Source: Antedon mediterranea
Lineage: Eukaryota; Animalia; Echinodermata
NCBI RefSeq assembly: GCF_964355755.1
Contig: NC_092675.1
Coordinates: 24,214,912-24,278,911 of the forward strand
Length of the DNA: 64,000 nt
Direction of reading: 5' to 3'
Shown piece by piece: positions 1,231-40,045 of this stretch; position 1 is the stretch's first letter, and the number at the start of each line of letters is the position of its first letter. The notes under the pieces were generated by a model that was not told the DNA's origin, ran no database searches, and saw only the letters and a list, made by a program, of their open reading frames with translations. Made by a program: the position numbers and the translations under genes.

Positions 1231-4200
1231 CATCTATTTCAAATGTCAGAATAAAATTGATAAAATCAACAAACTGAGAAACTCTGGTGTATACACCTGG
1301 AAAGTTCGGTTCCGCACAACCATATCCCCAACTCGTGATTCCAACAAGATGCCATGTACTGCCATTTACGCACATCAAGGGACCACCACTATCACCCTGT
1401 ACAAAATATATTTATAAAATTTAATCTTATATTTATATTTGCGAACATATATTGTAATATCTATTTGCAATTTTTATATATTGCATGTATGCGATGTGTT
1501 AACATATGTGAAAATAATTCTTCGAATTCGGTTTTTTTTGTTATTGGAATTCATTAATATATCCGATTATTGGATTTTTGTAGAGGTAAAGGTAGATAGG
1601 CCTACTATATAATGTACAAGAAATTTACGAATGTGATCAGATGTGACTTATTGTTTATAGATTAGAAACTTTATGAAAAACTGTGAATTAAAAAACTGCA
1701 AACATTCACTTGACAAGAGTCTTTGCCGCCCTCTGGATGACCAGCGCAGATCATGTTATCAGTGACCGTAGATCCACTTAGGTTTCTTCGACACTCTTCT
1801 ATGTCTACCAATGGGACATTTGTATATTGTAGTATACTTGGTAGGGAACCTTTAAAATGCAATATTAAATAATATCAAATTTACACTAAGGCACAATAAT
1901 ATATTATTTTTGTTGTTTAAATACAGCAATATCAACATTGTTAGAATTAATAGACTTTAACAAAAGGTAAAAGGAATGTAGTGATAAATGCAACCCTGAT
2001 TGCAAATACTATTATCTAGTCTTTGAAAGTGTATTAAACTGTGATAACTAACCAAATTTAACTTATTTAAATAAATTACACAATTGTTACCATCGCCTGA
2101 AACGCCCCATCCTGCAACATAACACTGTGTTCCTGGTTCGAATTTTGTGTCGCTATAGCAAATCGGCTGTATGTTGTCATTGAATGTCAGTGGAGTAGCG
2201 AGTAAAATCAATGCAATATCACTGTCACTTGTATAGTCATTGTAATATGGATAGATAATTATCTCCTCAACATCTATACGTTCACCATCATTTAAGTCAC
2301 GTTCACCATCATTTATGTCTCTTTCACCAGCAACAATACTGTATGCGTCAATGTTACGATTTCTAGAAATATAACAAAAGATACATATTTTAGTTTCTAA
2401 ACACAAGTTTTTATTTTACTTTTTGTTAATTTATGATTCTGTAAATAACTTACATGCAGTGGGCAGCTGTTACAGCCCACTTTTCATTGATCAACGATGC
2501 ACCACAAATATGTTGATTATTGTACTGCAAAGAAACCATCCATGGCCATTCTCCTTGATCGGAATCCTCACCACCAATAATCCGTGGTGTATCTAAGTGA
2601 CGCTCTCCACAAACAATATTTGGAGCTAAAATACAATACATTTATATTATTTGTAATAATTTAAATGTTCCTCCCAATTATGTTACGTTGTTGAATCTAT
2701 GATGTAAAATATTTAATGAGGTAACCAAGCCATTTTTGTATTAATGTATTTTAAGGTATAGTTTTTATGTTTTAATATTTGTTTTTTACTCACGTTCCTG
2801 ACATTTATGCCATTCATCAGTCCAATCACCACAATTATCAGATCCATCACAAACTGAAGAATTATCTAAGCATACACCGATGTGATTACCAGACAAACAC
2901 AAATGTCCAGGACAATCTTCAAAGATACAATATATTTGTAATTAGTTATTAATTAAGATAATAATAATAATTGCTGGAACATAAAGTTATTCAACATGTT
3001 TATGAAAAAAATGCTCTTTAATCTGACTAATAATTGTTAGTTACTTATAATGTAAACATACCTATGTCAATAACATTTAGTAGTAATTCAAATCCTCTGT
3101 TAACCACTGAATAGTCAGTTTGAAATGTTATATTTATGTTGGTTTTAGCAAGGACACGGTTGTTATTATCTTGTCCAGTAAAATATTCAGTCACTGTATT
3201 GCCAATGAAGTCAACATAGGTGATTATTAAAAAGTCGCAACAGCTTTCCAGATCCAAGTCGGAAAAGGTTAGCAGAATTCCTGTATTCTGCGGACTTCTC
3301 ACAATCCATTCGCAGTTGTGGTGATTATGATGGTCATCAGGGTAATTCGGAGAACTAATGTATACAACATCACTTGTGTTTAAATACACATTTCCACCAC
3401 AATCTAGCAAATTAAATGATTCATAAAGTTATTATAAATTAAACATAATCATCTTAATAATTTTTGGTAGGACATTTCAAAATACCTTATTTTCGAATTA
3501 TAACGTACTTTATAAAAATACCCAATAACACAATTAGAACGACGTAAAGTCTTTTGAATCATATCCCTTTGTTAGGTCTTATGAAAGGATGAGTGTACGT
3601 AAGTTTAATTTTGTATCTATAGACTGTCATGGCTGTCGTCTCTCATAGAATAATTTAAAAGACAATTATATCGTCATGTACACATTACAGATTAAAATAA
3701 TGTATGTTAACAGACAAGTAAGGTAGAACAACATATCTGACTGTTACATCAGAACAGTTCATTTTAGTCCATTATTTAGATTTTACCTGTACAGTTATTC
3801 TCATCTTCTCCTAAAAGACAATCTTCTTCTCCGTTACAAAATAATTCATAACTTATGCAATTACCATCGATTTCACAAACATGATCACATTGTACTTATA
3901 ATAAAAAAAATGTATGAACAGTTATAAATCATATGTAAATAATTACAATGATTAAACTTATAAATATCTATATATAAATTTACGTAAGGGCAAAATTCGG
4001 TAAATCGCGCCTTACTTTTAGAATTTTTACTCGATGTTATATAAAGTTGGTTCGTACTTTCGGTACTGATTTTAACCACCTGATGTAACCCTGTTTACTA
4101 ATTAAATTAAGTTAGATAATTAGTTATTGATGATTAAAACGAATTTAGGTTCAACGATTTGCCCCAAATAGGGGTGTTTTCCGATCGTTGTATACACTGT

Positions 4201-40045: not shown

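What the first reader, a model, noticed from the sequence alone, without database searches (positions are those of the whole stretch)
1231..40045. The protease 'gene cluster' is one gene encoding a giant polyprotease with at least 5 active, near-identical trypsin modules
Seen: every protease domain ends ...TFEID-G|GTAAGT, a perfect phase-1 donor (23153, 16803, 12891, 7590, 1231). It is followed by two phase 1-1 micro-exons and LDLa/CUB/LDLa exons leading in frame to the next R-IIGG. I found only one signal-peptide exon (39973-40045) and none inside modules 2-5. Each 467-472 aa module keeps His/Asp/Ser, the S1 Asp (KD[S/A]CQ) and DTPR-IIGG, and 1-1230 implies a sixth module. Established: ovochymase and polyserase-1/TMPRSS9 carry up to three diverged protease domains, some inactive. 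Inference: dosage amplification within one precursor; since the enzymes are Arg-specific and activate after Arg, the chain could self-activate and be processed into several enzymes.
Basis: partly seen in the sequence, partly recalled or inferred. Interest (0 to 1): 0.88.

Follow-up and report, generated by a model that had tools for sequence, protein, structure and literature searches.

The report
Feather star five-plus protease chain gene
A feather star gene repeats a near-identical trypsin-like unit at least five times with splice joins between units, so it likely makes one very long secreted multi-enzyme protein, an amplified and unstudied version of the known polyserase design that databases already predict in fish and other echinoderms.

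Summary
Observation confirmed. A 44-exon minus-strand model gives a stop-free 2350-aa frame: signal peptide, LDLa, then five [CUB-LDLa-trypsin] modules joined by S/Y-rich micro-exons and an LDLa, all GT-AG. All triads and S1 Asp are intact. A public run shows all 9 splice types of the repeat unit, including protease-to-linker and LDLa-to-next-CUB, so the units are spliced together. The locus matches Antedon mediterranea RefSeq, which splits module 1 off and joins modules 2-7 in a 2578-aa model. Not shown: the 5' join 38919->25347, the 3' end, a full-length mRNA. Correction: the linker has no Lys/Arg, and each protease should stay disulfide-tethered (Cys1-Cys122), so self-activation would give a linked multi-enzyme chain rather than free enzymes. 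Novelty is moderate. 57 of 120 listed long hits have five or more trypsin domains, and 29 have five or more with both active-site motifs, some near-identical. I found no paper describing more than three domains in 9 searches. Verdict: new variant of the polyserase kind.

The parts
39973..40045 (-). Signal-peptide exon (73 nt coding, phase 0-1)
   Evidence: only copy in window; join to the array not tested
38919..39029 (-). N-terminal LDLa exon (7 Cys, one extra)
   Evidence: 56% identical to the N-terminal LDLa of paralogous polyprotease XP_071959544.1
25348..38918 (-). 13.6-kb intron with transposon remnants; no hidden LDLa/CUB/protease exon found
23153..25347 (-). Module 1: CUB 25347-25006, LDLa 24889-24764, protease exons 24568-24397, 24305-24034, 23796-23657, 23318-23153
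   Evidence: 414-aa stretch identical in XP_071954226.1
21844..22622 (-). Linker 1: micro-exons 22622-22596 and 22399-22349, LDLa 21951-21844
   Evidence: spliced joints in X5
16803..21443 (-). Module 2: CUB 21443-21102, LDLa 20957-20835, protease 20666-20495, 20403-20132, 17423-17284, 16968-16803
17516..20009 (+). 5'-truncated LINE reverse-transcriptase fragment, antisense, in the module-2 intron
   Evidence: RVT_1, zf-RVT
15474..16266 (-). Linker 2: micro-exons 16266-16225 and 16028-15978, LDLa 15581-15474
   Evidence: joints 16803->16266, 16225->16028, 15978->15581, 15474->15090 in X5
12891..15090 (-). Module 3: CUB 15090-14749, LDLa 14604-14482, protease 14313-14142, 14050-13779, 13538-13399, 13056-12891
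10162..10954 (-). Linker 3: micro-exons 10954-10913 and 10716-10666, LDLa 10269-10162
   Evidence: skipped in the RefSeq model
7590..9778 (-). Module 4 (Ala190 variant): CUB 9778-9437, LDLa 9291-9169, protease 9001-8830, 8739-8468, 8233-8094, 7755-7590
3787..5673 (-). Linker 4: micro-exons 5673-5632 and 5400-5350, LDLa 3894-3787
1231..3403 (-). Module 5: CUB 3403-3062, LDLa 2916-2794, protease 2625-2454, 2362-2091, 1849-1710, 1396-1231
1..1230 (-). Intron towards module 6 (homologous to the 1.9-kb post-protease intron of modules 3 and 4); gene runs off the window
   Evidence: RefSeq XP_071954225.1 continues with two more modules

Best explanation
The window holds the 5' part of one feather star gene with five near-identical CUB-LDLa-trypsin modules whose inter-module splice joints appear in a public run; it likely encodes one secreted precursor of about seven modules that is predicted to be activated at each DTPR-IIGG site yet would stay one disulfide-tethered multi-enzyme chain. 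Shown: exon structure, open frame, intact triads, all 9 splice types of the repeat unit. Inferred: (1) the signal and first LDLa exons head the transcript; (2) the array grew by unequal crossing-over inside one gene and is kept alike by conversion and selection; (3) cleavage after Arg by itself or another trypsin-like enzyme activates each domain; (4) each domain's Cys122 stays bonded to the Cys before its activation site, which lies on the chain of the previous module, so the product stays linked unless a chymotrypsin-like enzyme cuts the aromatic S/Y linker; (5) the gain is dose and avidity, many identical active sites per secreted molecule. The biological role is untested. My best guess (about 0.4) is bulk extracellular proteolysis at a gut or mucosal surface.
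For: Stop-free 2350-aa frame with all GT-AG introns in matching phase. X5 joints: protease->micro1 depth 21, side 40; micro1->micro2 depth 6.7, side 28; micro2->LDLa side 52 and LDLa->CUB side 108 on one 410-nt contig; plus the internal joints, with SP2->SP3. RefSeq independently joins modules 2-7. The N-terminal LDLa matches the N-terminal LDLa that follows a similar signal peptide in the paralogous Antedon polyprotease XP_071959544.1. The seven protease domains form one clade (SH-aLRT 100, quick tree) apart from other echinoderm domains, so amplification is gene-specific. Mosaic introns: SP3-SP4 type A in modules 1, 3, 4 and type B in 2, 5, with 35-52 mismatches between types, while protease exons differ by only 4-7 codons of 249. 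There are 9 Cys per protease and 17 per stem, each odd, and the alignment to enteropeptidase 7wqx places Cys1 and Cys122. The linker has 0 K/R and 8-10 aromatic residues. Tandem DNA join in a second organism: run X6 goes back 25365->21511.
Against: Contigs collapse modules, so no single long mRNA is shown, and X5 is only guessed to be RNA, from one study. The join 38919->25347 was not tested. No protein containing the first LDLa exon was found among 2 candidates (weak). RefSeq splits module 1 into its own gene and ends the long model by read-through at micro-exon 2. Every donor has a short read-through to a stop, and AATAAA-type hexamers follow the protease exon in modules 1-2. X5 also holds intron-covering contigs (pre-mRNA or DNA). 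Polyserase-1 is reported to release its domains (PMC1435904, abstract), so tethering is not guaranteed. No evidence on tissue.
Confidence: 0.7

Rival explanations
1. One gene, but most mRNAs are shorter or variable: they end by read-through at a protease or micro-exon donor, skip whole modules, or start from a 5' exon other than the proposed signal exon, giving a ladder of 1-7 module proteins.
For: Read-through stops sit 1-31 codons after each donor. RefSeq ends both its models that way. X5 has a diverged micro-exon-1-like loose end not present in the window. All junctions are phase 1, so module skipping keeps the frame.
Against: The protease->micro1 contig and the micro2->LDLa->CUB contig each run unbroken across their donors, and a spliced contig joins across the micro2-LDLa intron.
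Confidence: 0.17
2. The precursor is a polyprotein cut into separate soluble enzymes, as the first reader proposed and as reported for polyserase-1, by cleavage in the S/Y-rich linker.
For: The 28-33-residue Cys-free linker has 8-10 aromatic residues and should be accessible to a chymotrypsin-like enzyme. Polyserase-1 releases independent units (PMC1435904). This is compatible with the gene model.
Against: The linker has no Lys/Arg, so the gene's own trypsin-like activity cannot do it. The Cys1/Cys122 pairing keeps the activation fragments joined.
Confidence: 0.3
3. The copy number is inflated by the assembly, with two haplotypes laid in tandem, so the real gene has about 3-4 modules.
For: No single-copy depth baseline was obtained. 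RefSeq protease domains 6 and 7 are identical to window domains 5 and 2.
Against: Copies carry distinct insertions (2.5-kb LINE, 1.4-kb and 1.06-kb inserts) and a mosaic of variants. X2 contig depths step roughly 365, 704, 1070, 1694 and 2236, about six times the module-2 variant (the tool warns this is no copy number). Only one module-1-type start exists.
Confidence: 0.07
4. A cluster of separate single-protease genes, each with its own start and stop.
For: RefSeq calls module 1 a separate 472-aa gene. A hydrophobic ATG stretch recurs in the micro2-LDLa intron.
Against: Spliced inter-module joints are seen. The RefSeq N-terminus comes from 30864-30772 inside the large intron and has no signal peptide. 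The internal candidate has a poor donor, and that donor falls in a segment replaced in organism B.
Confidence: 0.03

Closest known systems
Polyserase-1/TMPRSS9, polyserase-2 and polyserase-3 (PMC1435904, abstract and passages read)
   Same: Several S1A serine protease domains in one polypeptide; R-IVGG-type activation sites; LDLa module in polyserase-1.
   Different: Known polyserases have 2-3 diverged domains, some inactive. Here 5 are seen (7 in RefSeq), all intact and 98-100% identical, each with its own CUB and LDLa stem, and there is a signal peptide rather than a type II anchor.
Ovochymase (Xenopus, title seen in a reference list only; Halocynthia HrOvochymase, passage in PMC9265791)
   Same: Signal peptide, protease domains alternating with CUB domains, called a polyprotease.
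   Different: Three domains about 35% identical (turtle OVCH1), starting with a protease and lacking LDLa. The window domains do not group with ovochymase domains.
Enteropeptidase (PDB 7wqx, best solved match, E 6.6e-71)
   Same: CUB-LDLa stem before a trypsin-fold domain, Cys-tethered activation segment, similar DxTP[K/R]-I[I/V]GG site.
   Different: Single protease domain, membrane anchored. The window enzyme is very acidic (pI about 4.1) and by my recalled chymotrypsin numbering lacks Lys99, so trypsinogen-type specificity is not implied.
Uncharacterised RefSeq multi-trypsin models: Antedon XP_071954225.1 (this locus) and XP_071959544.1, Anneissia XP_033121970.1, Patiria XP_038051942.1, Lytechinus XP_063951984.1, Mobula XP_072100328.1, Anoplopoma XP_054454414.1, Labrus XP_029133939.1, Chanos XP_030630912.1
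   Same: Repeated protease modules, often CUB/LDLa-spaced in echinoderms. Several have 5-9 domains at 91-100% mutual identity.
   Different: These are automatic predictions that I did not test for read-through. The domains cluster by gene or lineage, so the expansions are independent. This locus now has junction support and a corrected model.

Membership tests
Polyserase-type polyprotease (broad sense) | Two or more S1A protease domains in one reading frame | tested here: met
   2350-aa open frame with 5 domains; inter-module splice joints
Polyserase-type polyprotease (broad sense) | Translated as one polypeptide from one mRNA | tested here: inconclusive
   Collapsed contigs show module-to-module splicing but no full-length transcript or protein
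Polyserase-type polyprotease (broad sense) | At least one catalytically competent domain | tested here: met
   Sequence level only: His, Asp, Ser and Asp189 motifs in 5 of 5; no assay
TMPRSS9/polyserase-1 orthologue | Type II N-terminal membrane anchor and domains grouping with TMPRSS9 | tested here: not met
   Signal-peptide start proposed; window domains group loosely with crinoid paralogs (SH-aLRT 92), not with ray or gar TMPRSS9 (quick tree)
Ovochymase | Protease-CUB-CUB-protease-CUB(3)-protease layout without LDLa | tested here: not met
   Layout is LDLa-[CUB-LDLa-protease-linker-LDLa]n
Ovochymase | Egg or ovary expression and envelope processing | not testable with these tools
   Tissue of run X5 is not on record
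Enteropeptidase | SEA/MAM/SRCR heavy chain with a single protease | tested here: not met
   Only the CUB-LDLa and protease parts align; no SEA, MAM or SRCR among the Pfam hits of P0006
S1A trypsin-like serine protease | Trypsin Pfam match, triad, Asp189 and Gly216/226, conserved Cys pattern | tested here: met

The most novel reading that the evidence does not exclude
Deuterostomes repeatedly and independently build homopolymeric protease chains by amplifying one catalytic module inside a gene. In this crinoid the roughly 370-kDa product self-activates into a seven-headed, disulfide-tethered enzyme whose module number varies between species (about five in the second organism), an undescribed multivalent-protease class.
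Probability: 0.35. Interest if true: 0.7.

Novelty: new variant of a known kind. Interest (0 to 1): 0.47.

Why it matters
Characterised polyproteases carry two or three diverged domains, often with a dead one, which suggests division of labour. A chain of five to seven virtually identical active domains points instead to dose or avidity, and it poses a control problem: many self-activatable zymogens tethered together. The locus gives junction-level support that at least one of the many 'uncharacterized' 5-18-domain RefSeq models is a real spliced unit and not a fusion of neighbouring genes. It also corrects the annotation: RefSeq splits off module 1 with an intron-derived start, retains part of an intron in module 2 and skips linker 3.

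Tried and rejected
No whole genome is held for this window, so the 3' end could not be read. No listed run is on record as RNA; X5 is a guess, supported here by GT-AG joints. Search with the first LDLa exon plus five read-through codons found 2 unrelated LDLa/LRR proteins among 2 candidates: uninformative. tblastn with 8 related proteins and a Cys-motif scan found no extra exon in the 13.6-kb intron; micro-exons could be missed. Internal start-exon candidates were rejected. The X5 loose end beside micro-exon 1 has no match in the window. Absence of X5 cover in introns was not used as evidence except where a contig joins across. Contig depths (X2, X6, X7) are only hints, without a single-copy baseline. 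The careful tree did not finish, so the quick tree is cited (at most 6 domains per protein, 81 rows). Literature: 9 searches found no description of this gene or of a protein with more than three serine protease domains. Subscription papers and most supplements are outside the library; from recall, insect genome surveys may list 4-5-domain models. Earlier-finding look-ups by sequence and place were empty. No structure was predicted; the disulfide assignment rests on alignment.

Full report
Observation. Self-comparison shows a tandem array over 1-25378 with units of 3.9-6.4 kb at about 87-98% identity. A 44-exon minus-strand model built from the window gives 7051 nt and 2350 aa without a stop, with AG acceptors, GT donors and matching phases throughout. 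The order is signal exon, LDLa, a 13.6-kb intron, then five times CUB, LDLa and four protease exons, with two micro-exons and an LDLa between modules. Pfam confirms the domains. All five protease domains keep His, Asp and Ser motifs, Asp189, SWG, PGVY and DTPR-IIGG; module 4 has Ala190.

Identity. The module-1 CUB is 100% identical to Antedon mediterranea XP_071954226.1, a crinoid, and 414 residues match exactly. Its cluster also holds XP_071954225.1, 2578 aa, which starts inside the module-2 protease, has six protease ends and stops just after micro-exon 2. The locus therefore probably has seven modules. RefSeq's module-1 start maps to 30864-30772 within the large intron, and its long model skips linker 3. 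The automatic annotation already has the polyprotease in part, but mis-models it.

Are the units spliced together? Ten runs were listed, none on record as RNA. I laid 5 of the 10. Run X5 behaves as spliced RNA. On 21500-25400 it shows GT-AG joints 23153->22622, 22349->21951 and four internal ones, plus a return from the LDLa end to the CUB start carrying the first base of modules 2-5. On 13600-17500 it shows 8 of the 9 unit joints, including protease->micro1 (side 40), micro1->micro2 (side 28, below the 31-letter bridging rule, and resolving to GT-AG with the variant base of modules 3-4) and micro2->LDLa->CUB on one 410-nt contig. With SP2->SP3, 9 of 9 types are seen. This rejects separate genes. 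It does not show a full-length mRNA, since near-identical modules collapse in contigs. The module-1 version of the LDLa->protease joint and 22596->22399 were not listed, and 38919->25347 lay outside both stretches.

The 5' end. The signal exon is unique in the window. The upstream neighbour is a separate mucin-4-like EGF gene that ends with a transmembrane and cytoplasmic part near 47000. The first LDLa is 56% identical to the LDLa right after a similar signal peptide in the paralogous polyprotease XP_071959544.1, including an extra Cys. The assignment is likely but inferred.

Artefact? Modules differ by private insertions: a LINE fragment in module 2, a 1.4-kb insert in modules 3-5 and a 1.06-kb insert in linker 4. 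They also differ by a mosaic of intron types, while protease exons differ by 4-7 codons of 249. That pattern fits unequal crossing-over with conversion. In X2, a DNA-like run, the module-2 intron variant has depth 365, the module-5 variant 704, and shared exon contigs 2099-2236, about six units. There is no single-copy baseline, so this is a hint only. A second organism has the same tandem DNA join (X6), and X7 depths of about 55 against 196-281 hint at about five modules.

Mechanism. Each protease has 9 Cys and each stem 17, both odd. Alignment to enteropeptidase places the stem's last Cys at chymotrypsin position 1 and the spare protease Cys at 122 (the bond itself is established knowledge, recalled). 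Cleavage at R-IIGG would therefore leave each domain bonded to the chain of the module before it. The only Cys-free linker has no Lys or Arg but 8-10 aromatic residues. I infer that activation, possibly autocatalytic since the sites are Arg-P1 and the enzymes are trypsin-like, yields a tethered multi-enzyme chain, and that release would need a different protease. A review passage makes the same point about interdomain disulfides in polyserases (PMC11172050, passages), whereas polyserase-1 is reported to release its domains (PMC1435904, abstract and passages). The protein is acidic (pI about 4.1) with 29 N-glycosylation sequons in the window part. The tissue is unknown. A gut or mucosal role is a guess from the enteropeptidase-like stem and the mucin-stalked paralog.

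Comparison. Described polyproteases have two or three domains: polyserases (PMC1435904), beetle polypeptidases (PMC11172050) and ascidian ovochymase (PMC9265791, passage). But a search of 1417-4512-aa proteins gave 347 hits, of which 120 were listed. Of these 120, 57 have five or more full trypsin domains and 29 have five or more with both active-site motifs (simple motif test). Eight have all domains at least 91% identical, and one wrasse model has 18 domains. Echinoderms have CUB/LDLa-spaced versions with 3-5 domains. In a quick tree the seven domains of this locus form one clade, and other species' domains mostly cluster by gene or lineage, so the expansions are independent. A profile-free search of 1.84 billion representatives gave the same picture, with multi-domain proteins on top. 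One fish member appears in a zebrafish knockdown screen without comment on domain number in the passages I read (PMC7590325). Nine literature searches found no paper on this gene or on proteins with more than three such domains; the library omits most subscription papers. An earlier scan report describes a similar sea urchin gene.

Verdict. The feature is real and the single-gene reading is well supported. It works like a polyserase but is not a TMPRSS9 or ovochymase orthologue. It is a new variant of a known kind, recurrent in database predictions and apparently unstudied. Interest 0.47.

Noticed in passing
window 47017-64000, minus strand: 3' part of a mucin-4-like membrane gene: C8-3_MUC4 domain, calcium-binding EGF exons, an 8-aa TAPDEVKT tandem mucin exon (49434-50260), SEA-like, EGF, transmembrane and cytoplasmic exons. 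Its tail resembles the C-terminus of paralogous polyprotease XP_071959544.1.
   Followed up: partly
window 38919-39029: The first LDLa has seven Cys; the extra Cys is shared with the paralog's N-terminal LDLa and might form an inter-chain bond.
   Followed up: no
run X5 laid at window 16236: A loose end shows a diverged micro-exon-1-like copy followed by a GTTAG donor that reads through to a stop; it is not in the window. It could be the gene's last linker or a paralog.
   Followed up: partly
window 25006-25347: The CUB domain is 59-62% identical to CUB domains in four Antedon hyalin-like and adhesion-GPCR-like proteins, suggesting recent exon shuffling of this phase 1-1 exon.
   Followed up: no
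window 17516-20009 (+) and 33554-34489 (+): Two antisense LINE fragments in introns (RVT_1 and zf-RVT). The first has a frameshift between two long ORFs.
   Followed up: partly
window 3965-5030 and 26059-27430; 6206-7575: A non-coding insertion family with palindromic GCGAGC-rich ends, present in linker 4 and, inverted, in the large intron; a related end flanks the 1.4-kb insert of modules 3-5.
   Followed up: no
window 24260-24225 and homologues: A short internal duplication (ERD[I/L]NDG twice) makes an acidic insertion in the 70-80 loop region of every protease domain.
   Followed up: no
proteins P0007-P0063, P0272: Many uncharacterised fish, ray, frog and amphioxus RefSeq models carry 5-18 trypsin domains, some with signal peptides and GPI-like C-termini.
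   Followed up: partly
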